Of a stretch of 64,000 nucleotides of DNA, positions 43,652-64,000 are shown piece after piece. Origin of the DNA: Escherichia coli (GTDB lineage Bacteria > Pseudomonadota > Gammaproteobacteria > Enterobacterales > Enterobacteriaceae); NCBI RefSeq assembly GCF_001677475.2, contig NZ_CP015229.1; one strand, given 5' to 3'. The position numbers and the translations under genes are program-made. Position 1 is the stretch's first letter. Each line of letters starts with the position of its first letter. A model generated the notes under the pieces. The model was not told the origin of the DNA, searched no databases, and saw nothing but the letters and a program-made list of their open reading frames with translations.

Positions 43652-44632
43652 TTACTTCGCGTTGTAATTACGCAGAGCGTTACGCCCCAACACAATCCCC
43701 GCGCCAACCATGCCGCCCAGCAGCACCGCCAGAATCAAGGTAATTGCCTTTTTCGGACTATCGCGACGAATAGGTAACGTCGGTTTCATCACATAACGGT
43801 AAGCATGAATATCAAGATCATCAACTTTTAAGCTTTCGATATCCAGCAGGTTTTGACGAGTCTGATAGTAGTTTGGTGAGAACACCAACGGACGGGTCGC
43901 TTCATGTTTAATCATCGACTCCAGCGCTTCGCTACCCAAAAGGAACAACGTATCTTGCGTCACATCTTCAGTCTGCTGAACCTGTGGCTTTGTCACCTGC
44001 GCCTGATTCGCATACTGCAACGCTTCCTGAATCTGACGGATACGCAGATCTTTCTGCTCCTGCGCGACTACTTCCTGCGTTCTTAAAGAGTCCTGCAAGT
44101 TTTTCCGTCCCAGAGCAATGTTGTCTTTGAGATCCTTTTCTAGCTCTTGATTCACTTTATCATCAACTTGCTGAATGTATTGGGCCAACTTCATTTGTGC
44201 GCCCTCTGCAGTTTGCCCAACATAAGAAACAGTCAATGGTAATTGCTGGTTCTTAACAGAAGGTTCGATGGTAAGTTTTTCTGGTTCATCCTGATTATCC
44301 AGCGTTTCTGCTAATGCAGAGAAGGCAGAACTGAAGCGACCAATTAACGTCTCCTGCAAATCCGATACTTTCGGTGCAGCCTGACCATAGATAACATTCA
44401 TGGCATTGTTATAGCCAGCAATTTGCCCCACGTCGGGCTGAGTGATAATTGCTGTTGACGTCCATTTCTCCTTCGCAACTGCCAAATATCCAATAGCCAG
44501 GGCAATAGCCACAATGACGGAAATGATGATTGTCATCTTGCCACGCCACAACTGCACTAGTAAATCAATCAAATCAATCTGTTCTGGGTCATTATTTTGC
44601 CCAGAAACATTATTATTTTCTACTCTCATCAT
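43652..44632 (-). CDS. wzzB: O-antigen chain length determinant (polysaccharide co-polymerase Wzz)
   Basis: MRVENNNVSGQNNDPEQIDLIDLLVQLWRGKMTIIISVIVAIALAIG...; start taken at MRVEN. Confidence 0.95.
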   Translation of the reverse strand: MMRVENNNVSGQNNDPEQIDLIDLLVQLWRGKMTIIISVIVAIALAIGYLAVAKEKWTSTAIITQPDVGQIAGYNNAMNVIYGQAAPKVSDLQETLIGRFSSAFSALAETLDNQDEPEKLTIEPSVKNQQLPLTVSYVGQTAEGAQMKLAQYIQQVDDKVNQELEKDLKDNIALGRKNLQDSLRTQEVVAQEQKDLRIRQIQEALQYANQAQVTKPQVQQTEDVTQDTLFLLGSEALESMIKHEATRPLVFSPNYYQTRQNLLDIESLKVDDLDIHAYRYVMKPTLPIRRDSPKKAITLILAVLLGGMVGAGIVLGRNALRNYNAK

Positions 44633-44774
44633 TACCCTAACTGACGGAAATTTCCAAGTCCGCATAGTTTAGCGATAATCCTCGTGAATGCTATAGGATA
44701 AGTGATAAAAATAATGAATTGTTGCGTAAGTAACAAAAGACAATCAGGGCGTAAATAGCCCTGATAACAAGATG

Positions 44775-45950
<1,176 letters not shown>

Positions 45951-46168: not shown

Positions 46169-46189
46169 TTTATTGTTGATTAAATCAGA

Positions 46190-47787: not shown

Positions 47788-49212
47788 TCAAGAAATTAAA
47801 GATATAATACTCCCAAGCACATTCGTAACATATTGCTTAGCCTGATTTTCATCACTGCCTTCAGCGTAACAACGGAGTTCAGGGGCATTTCCGGAAGGAC
47901 GGAGATGTATAATATCACCATTAGTTAAAATAAATCTTGCACCATCAGTTTCATCAATAGTGGAACAGGATAATGATTCATACCCTAATTTATTAAAGAA
48001 ATTATTAGGTGATGAAATGGCATTTTTTATAATTTGCTGACTTGACTCTGAAGGAAAGTTTTTCACTCTATCTGACCAAGTAAATCGCTGTGGAAGATTA
48101 TTAACCAGTTGAGAGATAGTACTATTGCGAGAAGCTATTAAGAGCATTAACGCTGGTAATACTGCATCTCGAGTAGGTAACGCATTTAATTCTTTGCCAT
48201 TAATTTGTAAATCGGAGGCAAGCAGAAAACCGCCATTAGCTTCAAAACCAGCGACTGAATCAAATTGTTTAGCAAGTTCTGAAAACGCTGCAATCACATA
48301 AGGAGAGCCAATTTTAGTCCGTTGTGTATTTGCAAATTTATTAGATTGTTCAATTGCTGTATTACAACTCACTGGAATAGCCAACGCCTTGATATTAAGT
48401 TCAATAGCCGTAAGTAATCCCAGAATATCGCCTCGTAGCCATTCACCATTTTCATCGGCAACTAAAGGGCGATCACCATCACCATCTGTTGAGAAAATTG
48501 CATCGAGATTGTATTTTTTAGACCACTCTCTTGCAAGTAGACGATCTTCTTCGCTAACTGCTTCCGTATCAATAGGAACGAACTCATCACTTCTACCGAG
48601 GGAGATGACCTCAGCACCCAATTGATTAAAAAGTGGAGCATATAAATCTCGTCCTGCACTAGAATGTTCATAGATCCCAATTCTCTTCCCCTTTAAAATA
48701 TCGGAATTAAAAAGAGAAACATAACGTTCTAGGTATGAATCCGCACCTTGAGTACTTGTTTCAAGATGAGGTAATACATCTACAGGAGAAAAAACATATT
48801 CACTATTTACTATTGCTAACTCATCCTCTTTTGTGATTTCACCATCTGGACGGTAAAATTTCAAACCATTACGGTCAAAAGGTATGTGACTACCGGTAAC
48901 CATTATGCAGGGGATGTTTTTCTGCATGGAATAATGAGCTAATGCAGGGGTCGGAATTACACCATGATATTCAACAGCGAACCCATGTTGTTTGATAGCG
49001 AACGCGCATGCCTGAGCAATTTCATAACTACTCGGGCGATTGTCAATGGCTAAAGCAACTTTATTAAAATTGTATTTGTCATCAATAACAGAAAGAAACG
49101 CATGACTGAAGGCTGCACAAACATCATGGGTAAAATCGATGACTAAACCACGAGCACCACTAGTGCCGAAAGCAATATTGCTATCGGTAATGATTTTGTT
49201 AGCATTTAACAT
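47788..49212 (-). CDS. manB: Phosphomannomutase
   Basis: 474 aa alpha-D-phosphohexomutase; active-site TGSHIP and metal-binding DGDGDR. Confidence 0.88.
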   Translation of the reverse strand: MLNANKIITDSNIAFGTSGARGLVIDFTHDVCAAFSHAFLSVIDDKYNFNKVALAIDNRPSSYEIAQACAFAIKQHGFAVEYHGVIPTPALAHYSMQKNIPCIMVTGSHIPFDRNGLKFYRPDGEITKEDELAIVNSEYVFSPVDVLPHLETSTQGADSYLERYVSLFNSDILKGKRIGIYEHSSAGRDLYAPLFNQLGAEVISLGRSDEFVPIDTEAVSEEDRLLAREWSKKYNLDAIFSTDGDGDRPLVADENGEWLRGDILGLLTAIELNIKALAIPVSCNTAIEQSNKFANTQRTKIGSPYVIAAFSELAKQFDSVAGFEANGGFLLASDLQINGKELNALPTRDAVLPALMLLIASRNSTISQLVNNLPQRFTWSDRVKNFPSESSQQIIKNAISSPNNFFNKLGYESLSCSTIDETDGARFILTNGDIIHLRPSGNAPELRCYAEGSDENQAKQYVTNVLGSIISLIS

Positions 49213-49217
49213 GATGA

Positions 49218-49964
49218 TTACTTCTTAATAAATTGAGGAAGTTTGGATAGATTTTTATACGCTAAAGCTATTGGCCAGATAATACCATTCTGTTTCATAG
49301 CGCGAATATCTTCCATTGATTTATTGATCATGGAAGATGCTGAGCGATTGCTAATTCCACCAACACGCATTTTCACTAATACTTTTGGTAAGTAAGCTAT
49401 TGAAATACGCTGTTTTAAAATATAACGTAATAATGAGTCATAATCAGCAGATATTCGGTAATCTAATGAAAAACAACCAAACTCACTATAACAATCGCGT
49501 TTCATATAAAATGATGGGTGTGGCGGCATCCAACCTAGTTTCATCTTCAAACGGCTAAATGAGCCACTCTTCCATAATCTAATACGTTTAGTCGTATCAT
49601 TTTGGGCAACATACTCCAAATCACCATAAACAGCATCACACCCTGAACTTTCAAATGTTTTTACTATATCTGCAATAGCATCGTCATAAGCAAGTAAGTC
49701 ATCAGAGTGCAAAAATCCAATTATATCACCAGAAGCTGCTTGAATACCTTTATTCAGTGCATCATAAATACCATTGTCGGGTTCGCAAATGATTGTTGAA
49801 ACTCTTGTACATTTACTCTTGATTAGCTCTATTGTATTATCTTTCGATGCTCCATCTACAACTATATATTCAATATCTGAATGCGTTTGTTTTTCCAGAG
49901 AGAGTAATGTATCAAGAAGCGTTTTTTCACTATTATAAGTTGCTGTGATAATTGAAATCCGCAT
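49218..49964 (-). CDS. Glycosyltransferase, family 2
   Basis: 248 aa MRISIITATYNSEKTLLDTLLSLEKQTHSDIEYIVVDGASKDNT... (GT-A fold). Confidence 0.8.
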   Translation of the reverse strand: MRISIITATYNSEKTLLDTLLSLEKQTHSDIEYIVVDGASKDNTIELIKSKCTRVSTIICEPDNGIYDALNKGIQAASGDIIGFLHSDDLLAYDDAIADIVKTFESSGCDAVYGDLEYVAQNDTTKRIRLWKSGSFSRLKMKLGWMPPHPSFYMKRDCYSEFGCFSLDYRISADYDSLLRYILKQRISIAYLPKVLVKMRVGGISNRSASSMINKSMEDIRAMKQNGIIWPIALAYKNLSKLPQFIKK

Positions 49965-51370
49965 TAGTATCCAACTCCAGAAGAAGAAACTCTTATAACA
50001 TCATCCTCTTCCAAGTAGACTCCTGATCTAACCTCAATTATTTCAAGTGGGATCTTGCCAGGATTTTCAATGGCATGTGGAACACCAACAGGTATATATG
50101 TTGATTCATTTTCTGAAACAAGATAAGTTTTCTCCTCAAGATGAACTTTAGCTGTCCCCGAAACAACAATCCAATGTTCAGTACGATGGTAATGGATCTG
50201 CTTAGCGGTAATGTGACCCGGTAATACAATCACATGTTTAACCTGAAAGCGTTGCCCTTCAGCTATAGTGTCATGACTGCCCCAAGGACGAAAAATTTCC
50301 CGATGTTGTAAATATTCTGTTCGATTATTCTTTTTAAGCTGAGCTACGATGTTTTTAACTTGCTGAACTTTATCTTTATGAGCAACTAATACTGCATCTT
50401 TCGTTTCAACGACAACCAAATCCTTTACGCCCACGGCACCAATAAGTCTATGCTGCGAATAAAGATAACTATCTGTAGCATCCTCAACCAAAACATCACC
50501 ACGAATGGCATTGCCGCTTTGGTCTTTTGAACTTATTTCCCACAGCGCAGACCATGACCCAACATCACTCCATTGCGCATCCAATGGTACGACTACAGCT
50601 TCTGCTGTTTTTTCCATAACGGCATAGTCGATTGACTCTTCAGGGCAGCAAGAAAAAGAAGAATTATCCAAGCGGATAAAATCTAAATCTTGAGTCGAGG
50701 AAGCTAAGGATTGCTGACAACTCTCTAGAATATCTGGACGGAATTTTTTTAGTTCATCGATGAATACAGATGCTCTGAACATAAACATTCCACTATTCCA
50801 AAGATAACCGCCATCTGACAAATACCGCTGAGCTAATTCTAGCTCTGGCTTTTCAACAAAAGCTGCAACTTTATAACCTTGCCCACTAAGTGGATCACCT
50901 GACTTAATATAGCCATACCCTGTCTCTGGAGCTGTTGGAACAATGCCAAATGTGACCAACTTACCTTGCTGCGCAAACTCCTTCGCGGCCAAAACTGCTG
51001 TAATGAAACTATTCTCATCCTGAATTTCATGGTCAGCCGCAAGAACTAAAAGTATAGGATCCTCTCCACTTGCCGTTGCCTGAAGCGCTGCAAGGGCTAC
51101 AGCTGGTGCCGTATTGCGCCCAACAGGCTCAAGCAAAATCCCACTATGCTTTAAACCAACTTTACGTAATTGTTCAGCAACGATGAAACGATGTGATTCA
51201 TTACAAATGATCAAAGCAGGATTGTGTTCAACCTTTTCTAGCCGTCGCATAGTCTCTTGCAACATAGTTAAGCGGCTATTTAAAGACAGAAATTGTTTCG
51301 GATAAAGTGTACGTGAAAGAGGCCATAATCTGGTACCAGATCCACCGGCCATGACAACGGGAAGTAGCAT
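49964..51370 (-). CDS. manC: Mannose-1-phosphate guanylyltransferase / mannose-6-phosphate isomerase
   Basis: 468 aa [28 protein letters not shown]... with C-terminal cupin. Confidence 0.92.
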   Translation of the reverse strand: MLLPVVMAGGSGTRLWPLSRTLYPKQFLSLNSRLTMLQETMRRLEKVEHNPALIICNESHRFIVAEQLRKVGLKHSGILLEPVGRNTAPAVALAALQATASGEDPILLVLAADHEIQDENSFITAVLAAKEFAQQGKLVTFGIVPTAPETGYGYIKSGDPLSGQGYKVAAFVEKPELELAQRYLSDGGYLWNSGMFMFRASVFIDELKKFRPDILESCQQSLASSTQDLDFIRLDNSSFSCCPEESIDYAVMEKTAEAVVVPLDAQWSDVGSWSALWEISSKDQSGNAIRGDVLVEDATDSYLYSQHRLIGAVGVKDLVVVETKDAVLVAHKDKVQQVKNIVAQLKKNNRTEYLQHREIFRPWGSHDTIAEGQRFQVKHVIVLPGHITAKQIHYHRTEHWIVVSGTAKVHLEEKTYLVSENESTYIPVGVPHAIENPGKIPLEIIEVRSGVYLEEDDVIRVSSSGVGY

Positions 51371-51375
51371 ATCTA

Positions 51376-51837
51376 TTACCTTGATATAAAATAATTTTTG
51401 GTATATTGATGAACTGTAGTGCTATTAAGCAACGTTACTACATCAAACCACTTGTAGGAATTATGCTGAATCGTTGGTAGGCGAAGTTGCTGCGGATTAA
51501 TTTGAATTTCATATCCATGCACTACGTAGTGTGTAGAAAAATCTAGTTCAGAAAAATTGTCATTGTAAAAGTGTTCATACACACCAAGAAATATGGCCTC
51601 ACCAAGACTAGTTTGAACGCCTAACTCTTCATATGTGATCCTTTTAAAAGCATCCTCGAATGACTCGTCCTTAAAAATTCGCCCTCCAGGCACAAACCAA
51701 TAATTTTTTGCGGGGCGATTCAGGCGCTGCCCAAGCAGCGCCTCTCCTTTATCATTTCTAATTATGAGGTCAATCGAGATTAGAGGAGTATGCTTGACTA
51801 TTGTTTTAAATAACTCATATTCTAATCTCTTTTTCAT
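51376..51837 (-). CDS. gmm: GDP-mannose mannosyl hydrolase (Nudix)
   Basis: 153 aa Nudix box GGRIFKDESFEDAFKRITYEELG. Confidence 0.88.
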   Translation of the reverse strand: MKKRLEYELFKTIVKHTPLISIDLIIRNDKGEALLGQRLNRPAKNYWFVPGGRIFKDESFEDAFKRITYEELGVQTSLGEAIFLGVYEHFYNDNFSELDFSTHYVVHGYEIQINPQQLRLPTIQHNSYKWFDVVTLLNSTTVHQYTKNYFISR

Positions 51838-51839
51838 AA

Positions 51840-52805
51840 CTATCCCCGAAAAGAATCAATATTCTCAAGAAACCATTGATATGTTAATGATAGACCTTCA
51901 TGTAAATTATAGCGATGTAGCCAGCCCAAGTTTTTGAGTCGGGTAACGTCCATAAGCTTTCGCGGGGTGCCATCTGGTTTGGTCGCGTCAAAAACAATTT
52001 TTCCTTGATAACCCACTACAGAAGCCATTGTTTCAGCCATTTCACGTATAGAACAATCCACCCCCGTACCAACATTAATATGAGATAACATTGGTTGTGT
52101 ATTTTGTTGATAGATTGTGTCCTCTAACTCCATCACATGAACCGAGGCAGCAGCCATATCATCAACATATAAAAACTCACGCATCGGTGTTCCCGTGCCC
52201 CAGACAATAACTTCTTGTGCACCACTTTCTTTTGCCTCATGGAATCTACGCATAAGCGCCGGAATAACATGGGAGTTTTCAGGATGGAAGTTATCATTCG
52301 AACCATAAAGATTAGTCGGCATTACACTTCTATAATCGCGACCATATTGACGATTATAAGACTCACATAATTTTATGCCCGCAATCTTAGCAATTGCGTA
52401 TGGCTCATTAGTTGGCTCAAGTATGCCCGTCAAAAGTGCAGACTCTTTCATCGGCTGCTCTGCAAATTTTGGATAAATGCAGCTAGAGCCTAAAAAAAGT
52501 AATTTTTGAATTCCAACCTTGTGAGCTGAATGTATAATATTACTCTCAATCATGAGATTCTGATAAATGAATTCTGCTGGAAATGTATTATTGGCATAAA
52601 TACCACCTACTTTTGCCGCAGCAAGATAAACCTGATCAACCCTCTCTCTCTCAAAAAATGCCTCAACATCCTTCTGCACGGTCAGATCGAGTTCTTTGTG
52701 TGTTTTAACCACTAACTCGATATCATCACGCAGCGATAATTGTCGGCAAATAGCAGAGCCAACCATGCCCTGGTGCCCAGCAACATATACTCTTTTCTTT
52801 ATCAT
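51840..52805 (-). CDS. fcl: GDP-L-fucose synthase
   Basis: 321 aa [23 protein letters not shown]... Confidence 0.93.
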
Positions 52806-52808
52806 GTA

Positions 52809-53942
52809 TTAACGCTCCAGAGAAACCGAAACATCATAACCATGGCTTTTAAGAAGTGCATGTTGTTTCGCTTTTAACAAATCGCTAGCAACCATTTCTG
52901 CACACATCTCTTCAACTGTAATCTCTGGTTCCCAGCCTAATAGATTTTTTGCTTTTGCAGGGTCACCTAAGAGTGTTTCAACTTCAGCAGGACGGAAATA
53001 ACGAGGATCAACCCGAACTATAACGTCTCCAACATTTACACCAATAGCACAATCGGAAACTTTATTAACTACTGTGGCTATCTCATCTACACCCTCACCA
53101 GTGAATTCAAGTTCAAGTCCGACTTCTTTAGCAGCCATACGGACAAATTCACGCACAGATATCTGTTTACCTGTGGCGATGACAAAATCCTCTGGATGAT
53201 CTTGCTGAAGCATCATCCATTGCATGCGAACATAATCTTTAGCGTGTCCCCAGTCACGCAACGAATCCAGATTACCCAAATATAAGCATTGTTCGATCCC
53301 CTGAGAAATATTAGCTATTGCACGAGTAATTTTACGAGTAACAAAAGTTTCTCCACGGCGTGGCGATTCATGGTTAAAAAGAATACCATTACAAGCATAT
53401 ATACCATAAGATTCACGGTAGTTAACTGTTATCCAGTAAGCATACATCTTAGCTACAGCATAAGGCGAACGCGGGTAGAATGGAGTTGTTTCACGCTGAG
53501 GAATCTCTTGCACTAAACCAAAAAGTTCTGAAGTAGATGCTTGATAGAAACGTGTTTTTTTCTCCAGCCCACAGATTCGTATTGCTTCTAATAAACGTAA
53601 TGTACCTATTGCATCTACATCTGCTGTATATTCTGGTGACTCGAATGATACTGCGACATGGGATTGTGCACCAAGGTTATAAATTTCATCCGGTTGAATT
53701 TCTTGGATTAAACGGATCAGATTCGATGTATCTGTTAAATCCCCATAGTGTAAAATAAAATTAGGCTCATCAACGAATCGTGATTGATATATATGATCAA
53801 TTCTATCAGTGTTAAATGACGATGCTCGGCGTTTTATACCATGTACTTCATAACCTTTTTCAATAAGAAATTCAGCAAGATATGAACCATCTTGTCCAGT
53901 TACGCCTGTGATAAATGCAACTTTTTTATTCATTTTAATCAT
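52809..53942 (-). CDS. gmd: GDP-mannose 4,6-dehydratase (true start may be 9 nt downstream, at [10 protein letters not shown])
   Basis: 377 aa; [19 protein letters not shown]... SDR-type dehydratase. Confidence 0.95.
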
Positions 53943-53951
53943 GTTATGTTC

Positions 53952-54983
53952 CTAAATATTCAACTCATTATAAACTTTAATCGTTTCATTAACACATTTT
54001 GACCATGAAAATTTTTGCGCCTGCAGTAAACCTCTTTCGATCATAACATTTCTTTTTAAATTAACTAATTCTAAAGCTTCTTTTAACGTAAACTCATTAA
54101 TATCATCAATATAAATAGGCGCATTCCCCCCTACTTCCGGCAACGAGGATGTGTTTGCACAAATAACTGGACATCCGGCCTGCATAGCTTCTAGGACAGG
54201 TATTCCAAACCCCTCATAACTGGAAGGGTAAACAAGTGCATATGCAGTATTATACTGTATATTTAAATCTTCATTACTCAAAAATGTAAAATGTTCATAT
54301 CTATTTTTTAAATATTTTTCAAGGAGTTCTCTTTCATATTTTTTAAGCGAGCCTCCGCCTACAATTGTAAGCTTTAAGCCATGTAATTTCCCTACAGCTT
54401 TGACTGCAAGAACGAAATTTTTATAACCTTCTCTGGCACCGACAAACAAAACTGAATTATTTACTCTCATATCAGATATGTTAGAAATATGTTTATATGA
54501 TGGGGATACACCATTATAAATCACTCTAATTTTATCTTCACTAATTGGACAGTACTTAAGTAAATCTCTAGCAGTGTTGTTTGAAATACAAATTACGATA
54601 TCACTATTCTTGATAGCATGATATTTTTGAAGAGAATGAATAAATTTTGACATTCCTCCCCTGTATTTTTCATAGGTAAAATCATGAACAGTTGTAACAT
54701 TTTTCACATTCAAATTAGGATTTTTATGAACTCGATAATAACTTGAGTGTAAAACCCTAGTTTTAATATCACTTACATTTCTATATCTTTCTAAAATTCT
54801 TGGCTCACGATATTGCAACTTTAAGTCACTTGTATCAAACTCAAATTCTTTATTTTTATACAATAGAATTTCAGCTTGGTAATTTGATTTCACCATTCCT
54901 TGGATCAACTCATTAAAGTATACACTTATTCCACCAAATGATTGGAGATTATAAATAATCCCATCGATAGTTACCATTATCAT
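53952..54983 (-). CDS. Glycosyltransferase, family 4 (GT-B)
   Basis: 343 aa with EGFGIPVLEAMQAGCPVI motif. Confidence 0.82.
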   Translation of the reverse strand: MIMVTIDGIIYNLQSFGGISVYFNELIQGMVKSNYQAEILLYKNKEFEFDTSDLKLQYREPRILERYRNVSDIKTRVLHSSYYRVHKNPNLNVKNVTTVHDFTYEKYRGGMSKFIHSLQKYHAIKNSDIVICISNNTARDLLKYCPISEDKIRVIYNGVSPSYKHISNISDMRVNNSVLFVGAREGYKNFVLAVKAVGKLHGLKLTIVGGGSLKKYERELLEKYLKNRYEHFTFLSNEDLNIQYNTAYALVYPSSYEGFGIPVLEAMQAGCPVICANTSSLPEVGGNAPIYIDDINEFTLKEALELVNLKRNVMIERGLLQAQKFSWSKCVNETIKVYNELNI

Positions 54984-56236
54984 CGCCCTCGCAAGGTAAT
55001 ACGTTCGATTAGAACGAACAATATCAAAAAGAAGATCAGTAACAATACATATGCAGGCCCAGAAAAATAAGTTCCAAATGAAGGTGAAATGAGAATTATA
55101 GAAAGCAAAAAATAGGATGCAGAGTTCGTAATTACTTTTGCATTAAACATTTTAAGCTTAGCAAAAATATAGCCATAAAAGATATTCATAGGTGAAAGAA
55201 AAGTTAAAATGACCAGTCCAACATATCCATAATCAACAAAATTATCCATCCCTTTTGAAAAAGCAGGTGTATGCCCCGACTCTGCAGCTCCTGGATAATA
55301 GATTTCATTTACATGCAGAAATCCATATACAAAAGGTTTATCAGGAAACAAACCTCTCGGTATATAAGACCAAAACTGGCTGAAATAGACTGTGCCATTG
55401 AAAAATTTAACCACACCTTTATCAATATCTTGCAGCAAATAAATACTGTTTTGATACTGGTCAAAATAAGACAATACTACATCGACATTCATATTTCCAA
55501 TAGCTAAAAATAAATTATAGAGAATGGCACACGCTGCCAGAGGTGTAACTAAAATCAGGCCAAATTTTAGAAATCTAGATTTATTAAGACTTAACACTGC
55601 AAGATAAAAAATCGCAAATGAAAGAATAAAGGTTTTCGATCCAAGAAAAAAAACCAAGGTACAATAGAATATCGCGCATAAAAATAATTTTATTTCCGAG
55701 CGTAAAGCCAACGCTCTAGAAAAATAAGATACTGAAAGCATACTTAAAGAAAAGGCATACAAAAAACCATTACCTTCTCGATAGTTTTGATAACCATCCC
55801 TGGGATTCGTCAACCATCCAGAAATACCTATTTCTGACTTTGAAGAAAGAAGAACAAATAATGTAACAAACAGAACCAATGTAATATTTGATATTCTTTT
55901 TAATTTTGTATGCGAAATTAAGCAAGTTAAATAGCTCTCTCTATTTTTGAATATTATATTAAAAATAAAATAAAATAAAATTATAGATAAAACACCCACA
56001 AAAGAGTATATGTTATATATGAATAAAGCCTCATTATAATATTGATTTAACGCAAAGTCTGAACCATAGAAAAGAGGGGCCAGAATATTTTCCAATAGAA
56101 AAACCGGGAATAAAATAATGGCGCAAATGGTAAAGGGATTGATAATTGTAAGTCTTAGCGTTTTCGTCGCTAATAAAGAAAAAGAAAAATATAGTACTAC
56201 AGCGAGTGTAACATTTAAACAATATATTATTACCAC
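54980..56236 (-). CDS. wzy: Putative O-antigen polymerase Wzy
   Basis: 418 aa, about 10-12 predicted TM helices with a large loop; position inside the O-antigen cluster; very AT-rich. Confidence 0.7.
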   Translation of the reverse strand: MVIIYCLNVTLAVVLYFSFSLLATKTLRLTIINPFTICAIILFPVFLLENILAPLFYGSDFALNQYYNEALFIYNIYSFVGVLSIILFYFIFNIIFKNRESYLTCLISHTKLKRISNITLVLFVTLFVLLSSKSEIGISGWLTNPRDGYQNYREGNGFLYAFSLSMLSVSYFSRALALRSEIKLFLCAIFYCTLVFFLGSKTFILSFAIFYLAVLSLNKSRFLKFGLILVTPLAACAILYNLFLAIGNMNVDVVLSYFDQYQNSIYLLQDIDKGVVKFFNGTVYFSQFWSYIPRGLFPDKPFVYGFLHVNEIYYPGAAESGHTPAFSKGMDNFVDYGYVGLVILTFLSPMNIFYGYIFAKLKMFNAKVITNSASYFLLSIILISPSFGTYFSGPAYVLLLIFFLILFVLIERITLRGR

Positions 56237-56246
56237 ATCCTCTCCC

Positions 56247-57056
56247 CTATCTTAAACCGAATAATTTGCGCTTAATTGATTTTGTTTTTTGATATAATGT
56301 TTGAGGAACAATCATTTTAAATAAAACTTGCAATGTATTATAGACAGCAAATTTTATTTTGTATGATAAGGGCATATGAATATTATTTTTAGCTAGAATG
56401 TAAGCAATTTCTTTCTTGACTAATTTTTTATTAGACTCATTTGAACTTACACCCGAAGCATCCATTATGGATACAGGAAAATTCACATAATGCAACGTAG
56501 ATGGATCTATTGTTCTTATCATAAAATCACTATCAGCAGCAATTTTTAGTGTTGTATCAAAGCGATTAGCATTATCTTTAAAAAAGCTAGAATGCTGGAA
56601 AGTACCCTGATGAGGAGGAAGTGAAGGCCGACCACATTCCCACTTTTTCTGTATTTTTCCGTAAACTCCAACTATATTATCTTTATCACTAAAATATACA
56701 TCACCATATATAGTTGTTGCACTCATATTTTCGTGAATGGCATTTGCTATTTTTGAAAGAGTATTATTTTCATAGAATGTATCGCCAGCTCCCATAAAAA
56801 TAACCCAATCGCCATTTATGTGAGGAAGAGCTTTATTCCAAGCGTCGTATATTCCTTGATCAGATTCGCATAAAAAATAATCTATAATATCAATATATCT
56901 ATAAATATATTCTAGTGTTGATTTGTTAGAGTTGCCGTCTATAACAATCCATTGAATATTACAATAATTTTGATTTTTAATAGATTCTGCAGTCTTGCAG
57001 AAATCTTCCTCACAATTATACGTCGATGTTATTATAGTAATCTGTAAGCCATTCAT
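56247..57056 (-). CDS. Glycosyltransferase, family 2
   Basis: 269 aa MNGLQITIITSTYNCEEDFCKTAESIKNQNYCNIQWIVIDGNSN... Confidence 0.8.
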   Translation of the reverse strand: MNGLQITIITSTYNCEEDFCKTAESIKNQNYCNIQWIVIDGNSNKSTLEYIYRYIDIIDYFLCESDQGIYDAWNKALPHINGDWVIFMGAGDTFYENNTLSKIANAIHENMSATTIYGDVYFSDKDNIVGVYGKIQKKWECGRPSLPPHQGTFQHSSFFKDNANRFDTTLKIAADSDFMIRTIDPSTLHYVNFPVSIMDASGVSSNESNKKLVKKEIAYILAKNNIHMPLSYKIKFAVYNTLQVLFKMIVPQTLYQKTKSIKRKLFGLR

Positions 57057-57062
57057 CTTAAC

Positions 57063-57773
57063 TCACTTATTTTTCATAGCAATATATTTTAATCTTAATT
57101 CTTTAATTAATGTCTTTACTTTACTATCAGTGGAATACTCAATATTAAACGTGCCAGAGACTCCTCTTATTTTGGGAATAGTTGTTCCAATAACTCCTTT
57201 TAATTTATTATTTTTAATTTGCTCAAAAAAAATGTGTTCTAAATAAACACCATCAAGGTCACGCACAGATTTATAAGAATTAGCAAAAAAGTCCCAATAT
57301 ATTTTTTTATTTACAACATAAAATCTTGTATCAATCATATTTTCATTCAGAAAAGGAACTGGTATAAAAAAAGCTTTACCATTGAATGCATTTATACATT
57401 GCTTATAATTATCGACGTATAGTTTTGATGTTATTTTTGCAAAACTTTCAGCATTAGACAAATAGCGGCTATTCATTAATGCATACTCAATTATTTCACC
57501 CTCTCCGTAACCTTTACCATAAGATTGAACACTTTCTATATCATTTTTGAAATGTATTATCTCGATCGAATCTTTATTAAGTATTTGTTTATCATTATGA
57601 ATATCTTTCGTCAAATCATAATCACTACCATCACATATTACTATAGAATCAGCATTCTTTGACAACTCTCTTATCGCTTTCAATGTATGTAATAATCTTG
57701 AATTTTCATCAGAAAGATTTGTAAGAGGAGCATTAGGTGAGATACAAGAAGTCACTAATACTGGGATTTTCAT
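57063..57773 (-). CDS. Putative O-antigen glycosyltransferase, family unassigned (236 aa from MKIPVLVTS)
   Basis: ATG overlaps the wzx stop (ATGA); the tracker ORF extends 46 codons further, into wzx; no recognisable GT2/GT4 signature. Confidence 0.55.
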   Translation of the reverse strand: MKIPVLVTSCISPNAPLTNLSDENSRLLHTLKAIRELSKNADSIVICDGSDYDLTKDIHNDKQILNKDSIEIIHFKNDIESVQSYGKGYGEGEIIEYALMNSRYLSNAESFAKITSKLYVDNYKQCINAFNGKAFFIPVPFLNENMIDTRFYVVNKKIYWDFFANSYKSVRDLDGVYLEHIFFEQIKNNKLKGVIGTTIPKIRGVSGTFNIEYSTDSKVKTLIKELRLKYIAMKNK

Positions 57774-59014
57774 TTTTTCTTTTCCAGCCTCAACGAAATT
57801 AACATTAGTATAAAATAATCGACGGTGACTCTTGCGCTCCAAGCATAAGCCACACCTGCTACAGAAAAATACATAATTGAAAAATATAAAACCAGCAGAT
57901 ATGGAATACATTCAACAAGATGAATGAGCCCCGTAATATTTGCATAACCTTTCGATTGGATTTGAGCAAATGGAACTTGAGCAAGAGAGTTGAATACAAA
58001 ACCTACTAATAATATTTGAAATATATAAGGACTCTCAGTGCTATATTGTTTTCCAAGCCATAAAGTTATAATATCACCAGCCTTCAAAGAAAACATAATA
58101 GCTATAACTATACTAGTTACACTTATTAATAACGTAGCCTCTTTTATTATTTTTCTCCGCTCATCTTTTGTATTATTCTTGCATAGAGCAGGAAAAACTG
58201 TCCTTGCTATAGTTGTCGGTAATATAAGTAACTTTGAAATTGCATCTGCAGGAGCAATATATAACGAAGCTTTAGCGGGGCCAACTGCATTTGATAAGAT
58301 AAATCGATCAATATTTGTAAGCAATGGGTTAATTATACTACTAATACTCGCCCATCCTCCAAAACTTAATAGTGCTTTTGTTTTACTTAGACTAAAATCC
58401 ATTGTAAGCCTATTATTTCTAAAAACAAAGAACACGCTTAAAAGAGCACCAACTATTCTCGCAATCACCAATCCCAAAGTAGCATTAAGCAAACCAACAT
58501 TTCCATGAATGAAAATAACTGGTAGTAGCGCAGTTAACACACCTGTAATTGTTTTTTGTACATTCAATAATTTGAACTTTTCATATCCTTCTAATATCCC
58601 CCAACAAACCATATTAAGAAGATAAAATGGCAGACAGTAGGATAAAATACTTATAGCATATGCAACACTTTCAGTTTGTTCCGGACCACTAATTAAGGAT
58701 GCAATCTTATGGTCGCAGTAATAAAAAATTACGGCTACAACAACACCAATAGATAATGTTAATAAAAATGATGTTGTAATTATTTGACTGGTTGCCTTTT
58801 TGTCGTTTTTATTTAATGATATTTCACGCACAACGGCTCGGGAAAGTCCGAGATCAAATATACTTGCGTATCCAACTATTGTAAAAAACATTAAAAAAAA
58901 GCCAAAGTTAGTTATTCCTAACTCCCTTGCCAAATACCCCATCGCAGGTATTGACAATAAAGTTGGGATTGCATACCCAACCAAATTTATTAAACTATTT
59001 ATTTTAATACTCAT
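57770..59014 (-). CDS. wzx: O-antigen flippase Wzx
   Basis: 414 aa, 12-TM polysaccharide-transporter-like, MSIKINSLINLVGYAIPTLLSIPAMGYLAR... Confidence 0.85.
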   Translation of the reverse strand: MSIKINSLINLVGYAIPTLLSIPAMGYLARELGITNFGFFLMFFTIVGYASIFDLGLSRAVVREISLNKNDKKATSQIITTSFLLTLSIGVVVAVIFYYCDHKIASLISGPEQTESVAYAISILSYCLPFYLLNMVCWGILEGYEKFKLLNVQKTITGVLTALLPVIFIHGNVGLLNATLGLVIARIVGALLSVFFVFRNNRLTMDFSLSKTKALLSFGGWASISSIINPLLTNIDRFILSNAVGPAKASLYIAPADAISKLLILPTTIARTVFPALCKNNTKDERRKIIKEATLLISVTSIVIAIMFSLKAGDIITLWLGKQYSTESPYIFQILLVGFVFNSLAQVPFAQIQSKGYANITGLIHLVECIPYLLVLYFSIMYFSVAGVAYAWSARVTVDYFILMLISLRLEKKK

Positions 59015-59031
59015 TTTTTAATTATCTTTTG

Positions 59032-59574
59032 TCAATAATTATTTTGTATAAATGGAGTGCCCAAACAATCTTTTTGTGATAAAAGAGGTTCTTTGTATAA
59101 TTGCCAATCTATGTTAAGTAAAGCATCATTCCAAATGATACATTTCTCATGTTCTTTTGAGTAAAAATTATTGGTCTTATACAATATTTCTGAACCTTCT
59201 TCTTTTACATAAAAACCATGTGCAAATCCCTCAGGGATCCACAACTGGCGCTTATTCTCAGCAGATAAATTCACCCCAACCCACTTGCCAAAAGTAGGTG
59301 ACGATTTACGAATATCAACCGCAACATCAAAAACCTCACCAACAACGCAACGTACCAATTTCCCTTGCGCATAAGGTTCTAACTGATAATGCAGCCCGCG
59401 TAAAACACCTTTACTAGACTTCGAATGGTTATCCTGGACAAATTCAACCTTACGTCCTACAGCTTCTTCGAATACTTTCTGATTAAAGCTTTCCATAAAG
59501 AAACCACGCTCATCACCAAAAACTTTCGGCTCGAAAATTAACACATCAGGAATTTCTGTTTTAATTACGTTCAT
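59032..59574 (-). CDS. rmlC: dTDP-4-dehydrorhamnose 3,5-epimerase
   Basis: 180 aa MNVIKTEIPDVLIFEPKVFGDERGFFMESF... Confidence 0.95.
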   Translation of the reverse strand: MNVIKTEIPDVLIFEPKVFGDERGFFMESFNQKVFEEAVGRKVEFVQDNHSKSSKGVLRGLHYQLEPYAQGKLVRCVVGEVFDVAVDIRKSSPTFGKWVGVNLSAENKRQLWIPEGFAHGFYVKEEGSEILYKTNNFYSKEHEKCIIWNDALLNIDWQLYKEPLLSQKDCLGTPFIQNNY

Positions 59575-59578
59575 TTTA

Positions 59579-60457
59579 TTAATAACCTTTAATCATTTTC
59601 AGCAGATACTGTCCATAAGCATTTTTTTTCAGCGGCTCCGCTAATGCTTTCACCTGTTCAGCATCAATAAACCCTTTACGGTAAGCAATTTCTTCTGGGC
59701 AGGAAACCTTTAGTCCCTGGCGCTCTTCAATGGTGGCAATGAAGTTGCTTGCTTCAATAAGACTCTGATGTGTCCCCGTATCCAGCCATGCATAACCACG
59801 CCCCATCATGGCAACGGATAAACGCCCCTGTTCCATATAAATACGGTTAATATCGGTAATTTCCAGTTCACCACGGGCAGAAGGCTTAAGGTTTTTCGCC
59901 ATTTCGACAACGTCGTTATCATAGAAATAAAGCCCGGTTACCGCATAATTACTTTTTGGTTGTAGCGGTTTTTCTTCCAGGCAGATCGCCGTACCGTTTT
60001 TATCAAACTCAACGACACCGTAGCGTTCAGGATCATTAACGTGATAGGCAAATACCGTTGCACCACTTTCTTTGTTAACAGCGACATCCATTAACTTCGG
60101 CAGATCATGACCGTAGAAGATATTATCACCAAGAACCAAAGCACAATCATCACCACCGATAAACTCTTCACCGATAATAAACGCCTGCGCAAGCCCATCT
60201 GGAGTCGGTTGCACTTTGTACTGAAGATTTAGCCCCCACTGGCTACCGTCACCCAGCAGTTGTTGAAAACGAGGAGTATCCTGTGGCGTACTAATAATCA
60301 GAATATCGCGAATACCCGCCAACATCAGTGTAGAGAGCGGGTAATAGATCATCGGCTTATCATAAATAGGTAATAGCTGTTTACTGACAGCCATAGTCAC
60401 AGGATAAAGACGTGTACCAGAACCACCCGCTAAAATAATACCTTTACGCGTTTTCAT
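59579..60457 (-). CDS. rmlA: Glucose-1-phosphate thymidylyltransferase
   Basis: 292 aa [42 protein letters not shown]... Confidence 0.97.
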
Positions 60458-60514
60458 TTCATCATTCCTTTTAATTCATCTTGCTCCACCATCACGAACA
60501 AGATGCAAAAACTA

Positions 60515-61414
60515 TTAAATTGCTGTAGTCGTAAATAATTCGTTGAGCATTCGTTTCACACCAACCTGCCACTCAGGCAAGACAAGCGCAAAGTTCTGCT
60601 GAAATTTTTCTGTATTAAGGCGAGAGTTATGTGGACGACGAGCTGGTGTAGGATAGGCTGTTGTTGGTACTGCGTTGAGCTTGTTGAGTGCAAGGGGAAT
60701 ACCTGCTTTGCGCGCCTCTTCAAAAACCAGCGCAGCATAATCGTGCCAGGTTGTGGTACCACTGGCTACCAGATGGTACAAACCTGCGACTTCCGGTTTA
60801 TTCAGTGCCACACGAATAACATGTGCCGTACAATCAGCCAGCAGCTCAGCACCTGTTGGCGCACCAAATTGATCATTTATCACAGCCAGTTCTTCGCGCT
60901 CTTTTGCCAGACGCAACATCGTTTTGGCGAAGTTATTTCCTTTACCTGCGTATACCCAGCTGGTACGGAAAATAAGATGCTTCGCGCAATGTTCCTGTAA
61001 CGCTTTTTCTCCGGCTAACTTGGTTTCACCGTAAACATTTAGCGGTGCGGTTGCATCCGTCTCCAGCCATGGCGTGTCGCCATTTCCAGGGAAGACGTAG
61101 TCAGTTGAGTAATGAATTACCCAAGCCCCAACTTCATTAGCCGCTTTTGCAATTGATTCAACGCTAGTCGCATTGAGTAATTGTGCAAATTCGGGTTCTG
61201 ACTCAGCCTTATCTACTGCGGTGTGAGCCGCAGCATTAACAATAACATCAGGTCGAATTCTTTTGACTGTTTCAGCTACACCTTCAGGATTACTAAAATC
61301 ACCACAATAATCAGTGGAGTGAACATCAAGAGCAATCAAATTACCCAAAGGTGCCAGAGCACGCTGTAGTTCCCAACCTACCTGCCCTGTTTTGCCGAAA
61401 AGGAGGATATTCAT
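60515..61414 (-). CDS. rmlD: dTDP-4-dehydrorhamnose reductase
   Basis: 299 aa [30 protein letters not shown]... Confidence 0.96.
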   Translation of the reverse strand: MNILLFGKTGQVGWELQRALAPLGNLIALDVHSTDYCGDFSNPEGVAETVKRIRPDVIVNAAAHTAVDKAESEPEFAQLLNATSVESIAKAANEVGAWVIHYSTDYVFPGNGDTPWLETDATAPLNVYGETKLAGEKALQEHCAKHLIFRTSWVYAGKGNNFAKTMLRLAKEREELAVINDQFGAPTGAELLADCTAHVIRVALNKPEVAGLYHLVASGTTTWHDYAALVFEEARKAGIPLALNKLNAVPTTAYPTPARRPHNSRLNTEKFQQNFALVLPEWQVGVKRMLNELFTTTAI

Positions 61415-62499
61415 TACTGGCGGCCCTCATAGTTCTGTGCAATCCACGATTGATAGGCACCACTTTTCACATTATCAACCCATTTTGTATTGGACAGGTA
61501 CCATTCCACTGTCTTCCGAATCCCGCTCTCAAACGTTTCCTGCGGTTTCCAGCCCAATTCGCGGCTAATCTTCTCAGCATCAATCGCATAACGGCGATCG
61601 TGTCCCGGGCGGTCGGCAACATAAGTAATTTGCTCACGATAAGATTTCTCTTTCGGTACAATCTCATCCAGCAAATCACAAATAGTAAGCACTACATCGA
61701 TGTTTTTCTTTTCGTTGTGTCCGCCAATATTATAGGTTTCGCCTGCTTTACCTTCAGTAACGACTGTATATAACGCTCGAGCATGATCCTCGACATACAA
61801 CCAATCGCGAATTTGATCCCCTTTACCATAAATAGGTAATGCTTTACCTTCCAGAGCATTCAGAATAACCAATGGAATCAATTTTTCCGGGAAATGATAA
61901 GGGCCATAATTGTTAGAGCAATTAGTCACAATGGTCGGTAAACCATAGGTACGTTTCCACGCGCGGACTAAATGATCGCTGGATGCTTTGGATGCGGAAT
62001 AAGGGCTGCTTGGTGCGTAAGCTGTTGTCTCAGTAAATAAGGGTAATTTTTCTTTATTATTTACTTCGTCAGGATGAGGCAAATCACCATAGACTTCGTC
62101 AGTAGAAATATGATGAAAACGGAAGCTATTTTTCTTGTCGCTATCAAGAGCAGACCAGTAATTGCGAGCGGCTTCCAAAAGGACATAAGTACCAACAATA
62201 TTGGTTTCAATAAATGCCGCAGGGCCTGTAATTGAACGATCCACATGGCTTTCAGCAGCCAGGTGCATCACTGCATCCGGCTGATGCAGAGCAAAAATCC
62301 GCGCCATTGCAGCAGCATCGCAAATATCCGCATGTTCAAAAACATAGCGTTCAGAATCAGAAACATCAGCAAGTGATTCCAGGTTTCCGGCGTACGTTAA
62401 TTTATCGACATTAACAACACTATCCTGCGTATTATTTATAATGTGACGAACTACAGCAGAACCAATAAATCCTGCGCCACCAGTAACAAGTATTTTCAC
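61414..62499 (-). CDS. rmlB: dTDP-glucose 4,6-dehydratase
   Basis: 361 aa [43 protein letters not shown]... Confidence 0.97.
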
Positions 62500-62573: not shown

Positions 62574-62612
62574 CACGCTACCGCCCCTGGCTTTACAGCT
62601 ACCAGAGCACTG
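62574..62612 (-). promoter_or_regulatory. JUMPstart element with ops (RfaH-dependent antitermination site) in the O-antigen operon leader
   Basis: Minus strand reads CAGTGCTCTGGTAGCTGTAAAGCCAGGGGCGGTAGCGTG; ops core GGCGGTAGCGTG. Confidence 0.9.
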
Positions 62613-62870: not shown

Positions 62871-63764
62871 TTATTCGCTTAACAGCTTCTCAATGCCTTT
62901 ACGGAACTTCGCCCCTTCTTTCAGGTTGCGTAGTCCATACTTCACGAACGCTTGCATATAACCCATTTTTTTACCGCAGTCGTAGCTGTCACCAGTCATC
63001 AGCATTGCATCAACAGACTGTTTTTTCGCCAGTTCGGCAATGGCATCTGTCAGTTGGATACGTCCCCATGCACCTGGCTGAGTGCGTTCAAGTTCCGGCC
63101 AAATATCGGCAGAAAGCACATAGCGACCAACGGCCATGATGTCTGAGTCCAGCGTCTGCGGCTGATCCGGTTTTTCGATGAATTCAACAATGCGGCTGAC
63201 TTTACCTTCGCGATCCAGTGGTTCTTTGGTCTGAATAACGGAGTATTCAGAGAGGTCACCCGGCATACGTTTTGCCAGCACCTGGCTGCGGCCCGTTTCG
63301 TTGAAGCGCGCAATCATGGCAGCAAGGTTGTAGCGCAGCGGGTCGGCGCTGGCGTCATCGATCACAACGTCTGGCAGCACCACGACAAATGGGTTGTCAC
63401 CAATGGCGGGTCGTGCACACAAAATGGAGTGGCCCAAACCTAAAGGTTCGCCCTGACGCACGTTCATAATGGTCACGCCCGGTGGACAGATGGACTGCAC
63501 TTCCGCAAGCAGTTGACGCTTCACGCGCTGCTCAAGGAGAGATTCTAATTCATAAGAGGTGTCGAAGTGGTTTTCGACCGCGTTCTTGGACGCGTGAGTT
63601 ACCAGGAGGATTTCTTTGATCCCTGCAGCAACAATCTCGTCAACAATGTACTGAATCATTGGCTTGTCGACGATCGGTAGCATCTCTTTGGGAATCGCCT
63701 TAGTGGCAGGCAACATATGCATCCCAAGACCCGCTACAGGAATAACTGCTTTTAAATTCGTCAT
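62871..63764 (-). CDS. galF: UTP--glucose-1-phosphate uridylyltransferase-like regulatory subunit GalF
   Basis: [48 protein letters not shown]...; start taken at MTNLK. Confidence 0.96.
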
Positions 63765-64000
63765 TATTTCATCCACCTGTAAAATGGTTGCTGAATTATA
63801 GCTTGTTCGATTTTTTTCGCCAGCATCAATTACCCTGAATTGATTACTGAATTACTTTTGATGTTACGCCGCTTCGTTGTGGATTGCAGTAGCATTGTTC
63901 CTAAGTATGGCTCCATTTTTCCAGGAATGGTCGCAAATCTACTCCCTCCGTTCCGGCAATCTAAAGTTAATCTTTTCCACATTAACAATATGGTGATTTA

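What the first reader, a model, noticed from the sequence alone, without database searches (positions are those of the whole stretch)
47788..62499. O-antigen cluster combining dTDP-L-rhamnose and GDP-L-fucose/mannose pathways with four putative transferases
Between gnd and galF lie rmlBDAC, wzx, wzy, manC, manB, gmd-fcl-gmm and four putative glycosyltransferases (two GT2, one GT4, one unassigned), all markedly AT-rich. Gene content predicts a Wzx/Wzy-dependent repeat unit containing L-Rha and L-Fuc and/or Man. I cannot assign a serogroup from sequence alone.
Basis: partly seen in the sequence, partly recalled or inferred. Interest (0 to 1): 0.5.

Follow-up and report, generated by a model that had tools for sequence, protein, structure and literature searches.

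The report
Known E. coli O36 O-antigen cluster
This is a complete, intact copy of the already described Escherichia coli serogroup O36 O-antigen gene cluster, so it is an ordinary and already explained feature rather than a new surface polysaccharide.

Summary
Window 47788-62499 (minus strand) holds 15 tightly packed, co-oriented genes between galF and gnd: rmlB-rmlD-rmlA-rmlC, wzx, a 236-aa unassigned gene (orf6), a GT2, wzy, a GT4, gmd-fcl-gmm, manC, a second GT2 (wfeY) and manB. A JUMPstart/ops element lies upstream. GC is 37% against 51% in the flanks.

The serogroup question is settled: this is O36. Eight complete E. coli genomes carry the same colinear cluster (96.3-98.5% identity), with wzx and wzy annotated 'O36 family'. 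From wzx to manB the window is 99.4-100% identical to one of them. The window's Wzx and Wzy are exact matches to GenBank proteins named O36 family flippase and polymerase. The O36 structure and cluster were published in 2014. The repeat unit is a pentasaccharide, which fits WecA plus four transferases.

The unassigned gene has no Pfam or NCBIfam match. Its model has a GT-A-type nucleotide-sugar transferase fold, and its homologues sit in polysaccharide loci.

One side observation stands out. Roughly half of public O36-type contigs carry wzy split by poly-T deletions, whereas the window's wzy is intact.

Verdict: already known, low interest.

The parts
62574..62612 (-). JUMPstart element with the ops sequence GGCGGTAG (62578-62585). 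It is the RfaH-dependent antitermination signal upstream of rmlB.
   Evidence: Exact 39-mer match, 0 expected by chance. Rfam RF01707 scores 60 bits against a gathering score of 35.
61414..62499 (-). rmlB (rfbB), dTDP-glucose 4,6-dehydratase
   Evidence: NF007490 795 bits (cut-off 649); TIGR01181 511 bits.
60515..61414 (-). rmlD (rfbD), dTDP-4-dehydrorhamnose reductase
   Evidence: NF007440 655 bits (cut-off 308).
59579..60457 (-). rmlA (rfbA), glucose-1-phosphate thymidylyltransferase
   Evidence: NF012024 675 bits (cut-off 588).
59032..59574 (-). rmlC (rfbC), dTDP-4-dehydrorhamnose 3,5-epimerase
   Evidence: TIGR01221 277 bits (cut-off 156).
57770..59014 (-). wzx, O36-type O-unit flippase (414 aa, at least 9 hydrophobic segments)
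   Evidence: Exact match to ANO89817.1 'O36 family O-antigen flippase'. 97% aa identity to A0A0A8J475. MOP flippase HMM E=3.7e-23. Hydropathy.
57063..57773 (-). orf6, 236-aa unassigned protein with a predicted GT-A-fold; the fourth putative glycosyltransferase. The longest ORF would start at 57911, but the annotated start overlaps the wzx stop by 4 nt.
56247..57056 (-). GT2-family glycosyltransferase (269 aa)
   Evidence: WcaE and other GT2 models, E down to 2.5e-16. Exact match to ANO89815.1. Pfam Glycos_transf_2 on its orthologues.
54980..56236 (-). wzy, O36-type O-antigen polymerase. Intact 418-aa ORF with a GTG start and 9 hydrophobic segments. It contains poly-T tracts at 55646-55653 (T8) and 55720-55724 (T5) that are shortened in many other O36 genomes.
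   Evidence: Exact match to ANO89814.1 'O36 family O-antigen polymerase'. TIGR04370 E=1.4e-6 over aa 55-406, below cut-off. 61% aa identity in a single frame to the Buttiauxella orthologue. Tracts.
53952..54977 (-). GT4-family glycosyltransferase (341 aa from the annotated start; the longest ORF starts at 54983)
   Evidence: GT4/GT1 models, E down to 4e-16. Annotated 'glycosyltransferase family 4 protein' in the O36 genomes.
52809..53933 (-). [quoted passage not shown]
   Evidence: TIGR01472 582 bits (cut-off 415).
51840..52805 (-). fcl, GDP-L-fucose synthase
   Evidence: NF047922 546 bits (cut-off 500).
51376..51837 (-). gmm, GDP-mannose mannosyl hydrolase (Nudix)
   Evidence: NF011963 203 bits (cut-off 146).
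49964..51370 (-). manC, mannose-1-phosphate guanylyltransferase/mannose-6-phosphate isomerase
   Evidence: TIGR01479 745 bits (cut-off 373).
49218..49964 (-). wfeY-type GT2 glycosyltransferase between manC and manB. The literature proposes it makes the alpha-L-Fuc-(1->3)-D-GlcNAc linkage.
   Evidence: GT2 models. 100% aa identity to the copy in the O36 genome L001. Role taken from PMC10606467, which names O36 among the serogroups that share this gene and linkage.
47788..49212 (-). manB, phosphomannomutase
   Evidence: Phosphohexomutase superfamily only; TIGR03990 169 bits is below its cut-off. Annotated phosphomannomutase in every O36 genome.
43652..44665 (-). wzzB, O-antigen chain-length regulator. 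It lies outside the reported interval but belongs to the same pathway.
   Evidence: ORF. The homologous gene is annotated wzzB in L013.

Best explanation
The locus is the E. coli serogroup O36 O-antigen biosynthesis operon in a complete, uninterrupted state. The steps below are inferred from family membership and the literature unless marked as shown.

1. Transcription starts upstream of the JUMPstart/ops element and runs through all 15 genes with RfaH-dependent antitermination.
2. RmlA, RmlB, RmlC and RmlD convert glucose-1-phosphate to dTDP-L-rhamnose.
3. ManB and ManC, with ManA encoded elsewhere, make GDP-D-mannose. Gmd and Fcl convert it to GDP-L-fucose. Gmm (Nudix) trims the GDP-mannose pool.
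4. WecA, encoded outside the window, places GlcNAc-1-P on undecaprenyl phosphate.
5. The GT2 between manC and manB (WfeY) adds alpha-L-Fuc to O-3 of GlcNAc.
6. The GT4, the other GT2 and the GT-A-fold orf6 product add the remaining three sugars, giving the pentasaccharide unit.
7. Wzx flips the unit, Wzy polymerises it, the neighbouring WzzB sets chain length, and WaaL ligates it to lipid A-core.

Shown here: gene identities, order and intactness, identity to O36-type clusters, the JUMPstart element, and the fold of orf6.
For: - Gene set and order. Equivalog HMMs above cut-off for eight pathway enzymes.
- Eight complete genomes hold the whole 14.7 kb colinearly at 96.3-98.5% identity, with wzx and wzy annotated 'O36 family'.
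- From wzx to manB the window is 99.4-100% identical to strain E06, with no gaps.
- Wzx, Wzy, orf6 and the GT2 are exact matches to ANO89817, ANO89814, ANO89816 and ANO89815. The Wzx and Wzy matches are seen on 46 contigs and are named O36 family flippase and polymerase.
- Wzx is 97% identical to UniProt A0A0A8J475.
- At megablast sensitivity, no genome outside the O36-annotated set matches the wzx-to-GT4 centre. The next hits cover only the rml and gmd-manB modules.
- Literature: the O36 structure and gene cluster are published (Perepelov et al. 2014, cited in PMC7685785). The repeat unit is a pentasaccharide (title of Mandal 2015). O36 has a two-residue side branch and is not listed among clusters with too many or too few transferases. 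O36 shares wfeY and the alpha-L-Fuc-(1->3)-D-GlcNAc linkage.
- JUMPstart.
- orf6 has a GT-A fold.
Against: - I could not read the 2014 structure paper. The presence of L-Rha and of D-Man in the O36 unit, and the assignment of the three other transferases to linkages, therefore rest on gene content only.
- Identity to the commonest O36 allele is 97-98% in wzx and wzy, with 14 amino-acid changes in Wzx. A subtle structural or serological subtype is not formally excluded.
- The Wzy and ManB HMM scores are below curated cut-offs.
- The orf6 fold does not separate a glycosyltransferase from a nucleotidyltransferase.
- RefSeq marks wzy 'frameshifted' even in genomes where I find an intact ORF identical in length to the window's. 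I cannot explain this without the reference protein NCBI uses.
Confidence: 0.93

Rival explanations
1. A novel, undescribed O-serogroup that happens to combine the rhamnose and fucose pathways. This is the possibility the first reader left open.
For: The best whole-cluster identity among complete RefSeq genomes is only 98.5%. The rml genes are just 87-96% identical to those of O36 genomes.
Against: The serogroup-defining genes are exact matches to proteins already named O36. The wzx-to-manB region is 99.4-100% identical to an O36-annotated genome. The lower rml identity is ordinary mosaicism: the rml region matches non-O36 strains better, at 98.1%.
Confidence: 0.02
2. An O36-related subtype. 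The 14 Wzx, 11 Wzy (against the intact allele of strain 2014C-3075) and 3-6 transferase substitutions relative to the common O36 allele could change a linkage or specificity. That would give a cross-reacting but chemically distinct antigen, as with O107/O117, where three substitutions in one transferase change a sugar.
For: Amino-acid differences are listed. The O107/O117 and O90/O127 precedents are described in PMC7685785. The window allele forms a distinct sub-lineage together with strain E06.
Against: Gene content and order are identical. Identities of 96.6-100% lie within the range normally treated as one O-genotype. NCBI names this exact allele O36. No gene has been gained, lost or truncated.
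Confidence: 0.04
3. A silent or defective cluster, so that the strain is rough or semi-rough despite the O36 genotype.
For: Other O36-type genomes show damage at this locus: wzy split by poly-T deletions and gmd interrupted by ISKpn26 in strain E06.
Against: In the window all 15 ORFs are full length and gapless against intact orthologues. wzy is a single 418-aa frame, conserved in one frame with Buttiauxella. JUMPstart is perfect. Genes outside the window (wecA, waaL, rfaH, manA) could not be checked.
Confidence: 0.05

Closest known systems
E. coli O36 O-antigen gene cluster (Og36; Perepelov et al. 2014 Carbohydr Res 390:46; O36-annotated genomes such as NZ_CM143910, NZ_OW848980, NZ_CP027447)
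   Same: Same 15 genes in the same order between galF and gnd. The wzx-to-manB region is 97.7-100% identical at nucleotide level. The Wzx and Wzy sequences are exact matches to deposited O36 proteins.
   Different: The rmlBDAC, gnd and ugd alleles differ (87-96%), consistent with recombination in the shared flanking modules. The window's wzy is intact, whereas the commonest O36 allele has T8->T7, with or without T5->T4, deletions. gmd is intact, unlike in strain E06.
Other L-fucose-containing E. coli O clusters with wfeY between manC and manB (O41, O156, O159, O168, SD2019180)
   Same: They share the gmd-fcl-gmm-manC-wfeY-manB module and the proposed alpha-L-Fuc-(1->3)-D-GlcNAc linkage. Many E. 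coli genomes match this 6 kb module at about 88% (hits H19-H30).
   Different: Their wzx, wzy and other transferases differ. Whether those clusters carry rml genes was not checked here.
Buttiauxella noackiae polysaccharide locus (L018)
   Same: The locus is syntenic as far as it is held: galF-rmlBDAC-wzx-orf6-GT2-wzy-GT4-gmd-fcl-gmm-manC. It shows 50-61% aa identity in the serogroup-specific genes and 70-89% in most pathway genes, with Gmm at 53%.
   Different: It comes from another genus and is far more divergent. Its product and structure are unknown. The region downstream of manC is not held.
GT-A glycosyltransferases (for example K4CP chondroitin polymerase 2z86, WrtF fucosyltransferase 9omh, SpsA 1h7l) as the closest structural relatives of orf6
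   Different: There is no significant sequence match to Pfam GT2 (E=0.47) or to the two GT2 of the same cluster. Nucleotidyltransferases (GlmU, IspD) give equally good structural matches. The invariant GKGYGEGE and D-T-x-F motifs are not the textbook DXD arrangement.

Membership tests
E. coli O36 O-antigen gene cluster (Og36) | wzx at or near identity to the O36 wzx | tested here: met
   The product is an exact match to ANO89817.1 'O36 family O-antigen flippase'. It is 97% aa identical to A0A0A8J475. The gene is 98.1-99.5% nt identical to wzx of O36-annotated genomes.
E. coli O36 O-antigen gene cluster (Og36) | wzy at or near identity to the O36 wzy | tested here: met
   The product is an exact match to ANO89814.1 'O36 family O-antigen polymerase'. 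The gene is 97.7-99.4% nt identical to O36-annotated genomes.
E. coli O36 O-antigen gene cluster (Og36) | Same gene content and order across galF-gnd | tested here: met
   100% query coverage and colinearity in 8 genomes. The only interruption is an ISKpn26 insertion in one subject genome.
E. coli O36 O-antigen gene cluster (Og36) | Direct comparison with the O36 type-strain reference sequence | not testable with these tools
   The type-strain record itself is not identifiable in the collections. O36-annotated genomes and a UniProt entry were used as proxies.
E. coli O36 O-antigen gene cluster (Og36) | O36 serological reactivity and the published pentasaccharide structure | not testable with these tools
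   This needs antiserum or NMR. The structure paper is not held.
Wzx/Wzy-dependent O-antigen pathway | A MOP-family flippase and a multi-spanning polymerase are present, with no wzm/wzt ABC transporter | tested here: met
   Wzx matches the MOP flippase HMM at E=3.7e-23. Wzy matches TIGR04370 at E=1.4e-6, which is below its cut-off. Each has 9 hydrophobic segments. None of the 15 ORFs is an ABC transporter.
Wzx/Wzy-dependent O-antigen pathway | Chromosomal position galF-gnd with a JUMPstart/ops element, and wzzB nearby | tested here: met
dTDP-L-rhamnose pathway (RmlA/B/C/D) | All four enzymes present and above equivalog cut-offs | tested here: met
   Scores of 675, 795, 277 and 655 bits against cut-offs of 588, 649, 156 and 308.
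GDP-L-fucose pathway (ManB, ManC, Gmd, Fcl, with Gmm) | All enzymes present and above equivalog cut-offs | tested here: met
   Gmd 582/415, Fcl 546/500, ManC 745/373 and Gmm 203/146 bits. ManB matches only the phosphohexomutase superfamily below cut-offs, so its assignment rests on position and on the RefSeq annotation of orthologues.
GT-A glycosyltransferase (orf6) | GT-A / nucleotide-diphospho-sugar transferase fold | tested here: met
GT-A glycosyltransferase (orf6) | Sequence membership of a recognised GT family (Pfam GT2 or similar) | tested here: not met
   Pfam Glycos_transf_2 E=0.47. No NCBIfam match. hhalign against the cluster's own GT2 proteins is not significant.
GT-A glycosyltransferase (orf6) | Glycosyl transfer rather than nucleotidyl transfer | tested here: inconclusive
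   Structural neighbours include both enzyme classes at similar Z. The context favours a transferase: a pentasaccharide needs four transferases, and all the nucleotide-sugar steps are already covered.

The most novel reading that the evidence does not exclude
The T8 tract inside O36 wzy (window 55646-55653) may be a mutational hot-spot that switches O-antigen polymerisation off (T7) and on (T8). On this reading, O36-genotype E. coli exist as smooth and semi-rough forms, and the window shows the 'on' state. Alternatively, the widespread split wzy (181 aa plus 240 aa) may still work as two polypeptides.
Probability: 0.1. Interest if true: 0.45.

Novelty: already known. Interest (0 to 1): 0.1.

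Why it matters
It matters little beyond typing. The window's strain can be called O-genotype O36, a serogroup seen among Shiga-toxin-producing (often stx2g) and commensal E. coli, and its O-antigen structure and cluster are already published. The window is useful as an intact reference copy, since many public O36 clusters carry a broken wzy or an IS insertion. Two smaller points could interest specialists. The fourth transferase belongs to a widespread GT-A-fold family that has no Pfam model. The commonest O36 wzy allele is frameshifted.

Tried and rejected
- The O36 structure paper (PubMed 24699003) and the supplements of the Liu et al. review are not held. Further literature searches for the O36 structure returned only citations. 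I therefore could not map transferases to linkages beyond WfeY.
- Pfam and NCBIfam gave nothing for orf6.
- A PDB sequence-profile search for orf6 found only a chance hit.
- hhalign of the orf6 family against the two GT2 of the cluster was not significant.
- Pfam gave nothing for Wzy.
- The promoter and terminator scan of the cluster matched shuffled expectation (55 found against 56.4 expected; 10 against 10.2), so it says nothing about internal signals.
- Looking up the contigs that encode the window's exact Wzx did not reveal the source strain's name.
- A novel-serogroup reading was considered and rejected.
- Rapid phase variation of wzy was considered and judged unlikely. The split and intact wzy alleles travel with particular wzx alleles, which points to lineage-fixed mutations.
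Full report
**Observation**

Window 47788-62499 holds fifteen co-oriented ORFs on the minus strand. They have short or overlapping junctions and are bounded by galF (62871-63776) and gnd (46190-47596), with ugd and wzzB further on.

NCBIfam equivalog models exceed their curated cut-offs for:
- RmlB, RmlD, RmlA and RmlC;
- Gmd, Fcl, Gmm and ManC.

The remaining genes match at superfamily level only:
- a MOP-family flippase;
- a weak repeat-unit polymerase match (TIGR04370, E=1.4e-6 over residues 55-406);
- two GT2 and one GT4;
- a phosphohexomutase in the manB position.

One 236-aa product (orf6, 57063-57773) matches nothing in NCBIfam or Pfam.

The cluster is 37.1% GC against 50.7% for window 1-43000. 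The trough is 27.6-32.9% in wzx-GT4, and the rml genes rmlB, rmlD and rmlA are 43-47%.

A perfect 39-nt JUMPstart element containing ops lies at 62574-62612, upstream of rmlB (Rfam RF01707, 60 bits).

'All markedly AT-rich' is only slightly overstated.

**Identity**

Megablast of the 14.7 kb against 5,426 complete E. coli genomes finds eight with full-length colinear matches at 96.3-98.5% identity. In all eight, wzx and wzy are annotated 'O36 family O-antigen flippase/polymerase'. The next best genomes match only the rml and gmd-to-manB modules. The central wzx-orf6-GT2-wzy-GT4 block is thus confined to the O36-annotated set.

Gene by gene:
- wzx through manB are 99.4-100% identical to strain E06 and 97.7-99.4% to the other O36 allele;
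- rmlBDAC, gnd and ugd are only 83-96% identical.

The rml block matches non-O36 strains better, at 98.1%. I read this as recombinational mosaicism of the shared flanking modules.

An exact-sequence look-up shows that the window's Wzx, Wzy, orf6 product and GT2 are identical to GenBank ANO89817, ANO89814, ANO89816 and ANO89815. The Wzx and Wzy matches are seen on 46 contigs and are named O36 family flippase and polymerase. Wzx is 97% identical to UniProt A0A0A8J475. The surrounding 43 kb is ordinary E. coli backbone at about 98% identity.

This is O36.

**What is known about O36**

- The structure and gene cluster were published by Perepelov et al. 2014, cited in PMC7685785. I could not read that paper.
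- The repeat unit is a pentasaccharide (title of Mandal 2015).
- O36 is listed among the O units that have two residues as side-branch.
- It is not among the clusters with more or fewer transferases than expected.
- PMC10606467 states that O36 shares the alpha-L-Fuc-(1->3)-D-GlcNAc disaccharide and the wfeY gene between manC and manB.

Five sugars minus the WecA-added GlcNAc leaves four transferases.

**The unassigned gene**

orf6 has at least 246 homologues of about 240-260 aa, none with a Pfam domain. Invariant motifs are C47-D48-G-S50, G86-K-G-Y-G-E-G92 and D148-T149-x-F151.

- comparable scores to GlmU and IspD nucleotidyltransferases.

Homologues lie in polysaccharide loci:
- in Vibrio, immediately after rml genes, a glycosyltransferase and a flippase;
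- in a Gallionellaceae contig, among transferases and a Wzy_C protein;
- in Buttiauxella noackiae, within a locus syntenic with the whole O36 cluster at 50-61% identity in the specific genes.

The fold alone does not exclude a nucleotidyltransferase. However, every nucleotide-sugar step is already covered and a fourth transferase is required. I take it to be a glycosyltransferase, with a probability of about 0.75. Its donor is unknown.

**Mechanism**

These steps are inferred from family membership:
1. RfaH-dependent transcription starts from the JUMPstart region.
2. RmlABCD make dTDP-L-Rha.
3. ManB, ManC, Gmd and Fcl make GDP-L-Fuc, and GDP-Man if it is used. Gmm moderates the pool.
4. WecA initiates on GlcNAc.
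5. WfeY adds Fuc. The GT4, the GT2 and orf6 complete the pentasaccharide.
6. Wzx flips the unit, Wzy polymerises it, WzzB sets chain length and WaaL ligates it.

WfeY is the last transferase gene in the operon and acts first. This agrees with the reverse-order tendency noted in PMC7685785.

**Side observation on wzy**

The window's wzy is an intact 418-aa ORF with a GTG start. Its single frame is conserved with the Buttiauxella orthologue over residues 1-396.

In other O36-type genomes two poly-T tracts inside wzy are shortened:
- T8 to T7, at window 55646-55653;
- often also T5 to T4, at window 55720-55724.

These changes split the gene into ORFs of 181 aa and 240 aa.

| wzy allele | Contigs |
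|---|---|
| Intact 418-aa alleles | 46 + 60 + 187 |
| 181-aa fragment | 364 |
| 240-aa fragments | 219 + 123 |

About half of public O36-type contigs therefore carry a broken wzy. That includes all six places examined that hold the Wzx allele identical to A0A0A8J475. The split state travels with particular wzx alleles, which favours lineage-fixed mutations over rapid switching.

RefSeq labels wzy 'frameshifted' in all six O36 genomes whose annotation I read. That includes three (E06, GPEC60-12-649, 2014C-3075) where I find an intact ORF. I cannot explain this without the reference protein NCBI uses.

None of this affects the window, which holds the intact form.

**Verdict**

The finding is real and correctly interpreted. 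It is the already described O36 O-antigen cluster, intact and unremarkable in architecture.

Novelty: already known. Interest: low (0.1).

Noticed in passing
window 55646-55653 (T8) and 55720-55724 (T5), inside wzy; compare L002, L003 and L007-L012: Many other O36-type genomes have T7, with or without T4, at these tracts. That splits wzy into ORFs of 181 aa and 240 aa. The split fragments are seen on about 340-360 contigs against about 290 for intact 418-aa alleles. The split state travels with the Wzx allele identical to UniProt A0A0A8J475. The window has the intact form.
   Followed up: partly
L001 9264-10520, L004 and L005 6264-7520 (RefSeq annotation of O36 genomes): RefSeq/PGAP marks wzy 'frameshifted' even where the ORF is an uninterrupted 418-aa frame of the same length as the window's. 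This is probably an annotation artefact tied to the reference protein, but it is unexplained.
   Followed up: partly
window 57063-57773 (orf6) and alignment A1: This is a widespread family (at least 246 relatives across Enterobacterales, Vibrio, Shewanella, Polynucleobacter and Gallionellaceae) with no Pfam or NCBIfam model. It has a confident GT-A-type fold and invariant CDGS, GKGYGEGE and DTxF motifs, and it always sits in polysaccharide loci. It may be an uncatalogued glycosyltransferase family.
   Followed up: partly
L018 (Buttiauxella noackiae metagenome scaffold), 1-12720: This locus is syntenic with the whole O36 cluster: galF-rmlBDAC-wzx-orf6-GT2-wzy-GT4-gmd-fcl-gmm-manC. It shows 50-61% aa identity in the serogroup-specific genes. 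The O36-type architecture is therefore older than E. coli or has moved between genera.
   Followed up: partly
window 59032-62499 (rmlBDAC), 44775-47596 (ugd, gnd): These flanking modules are mosaic. The rml genes are 87-96% identical to those of O36 genomes, and the rmlBDA block is 98.1% identical to non-O36 strains such as UMNF18. ugd is 83-96% identical. This is consistent with recombination breakpoints near rmlC/wzx and manB/gnd.
   Followed up: partly
L001 12680-13660 (strain E06): In the closest complete genome, gmd is interrupted by an IS5-like ISKpn26 element. The window's gmd is intact.
   Followed up: yes
window 1-~1839 and 1665-2375: An IS21-family element is inserted in the cbl regulator gene. 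Its istA is cut by the window edge (18-1022) and its istB lies at 1019-1774. Only Cbl profile positions 1-202 of 316 remain. Other E. coli genomes align only from position 1840 onward.
   Followed up: partly
window ~1840-25000: A cob/pdu (propanediol utilisation microcompartment) region lies upstream of sbcB-his. About 620 of 5,426 complete E. coli genomes cover at least 80% of this stretch, so it is an accessory region.
   Followed up: no
window 1-44000: The best identity of the backbone to any complete RefSeq E. coli genome is about 98.0%. No genome in that set is near-identical to the source strain, although its proteins are in GenBank (ANO898xx, on a 5.50 Mb contig).
   Followed up: no
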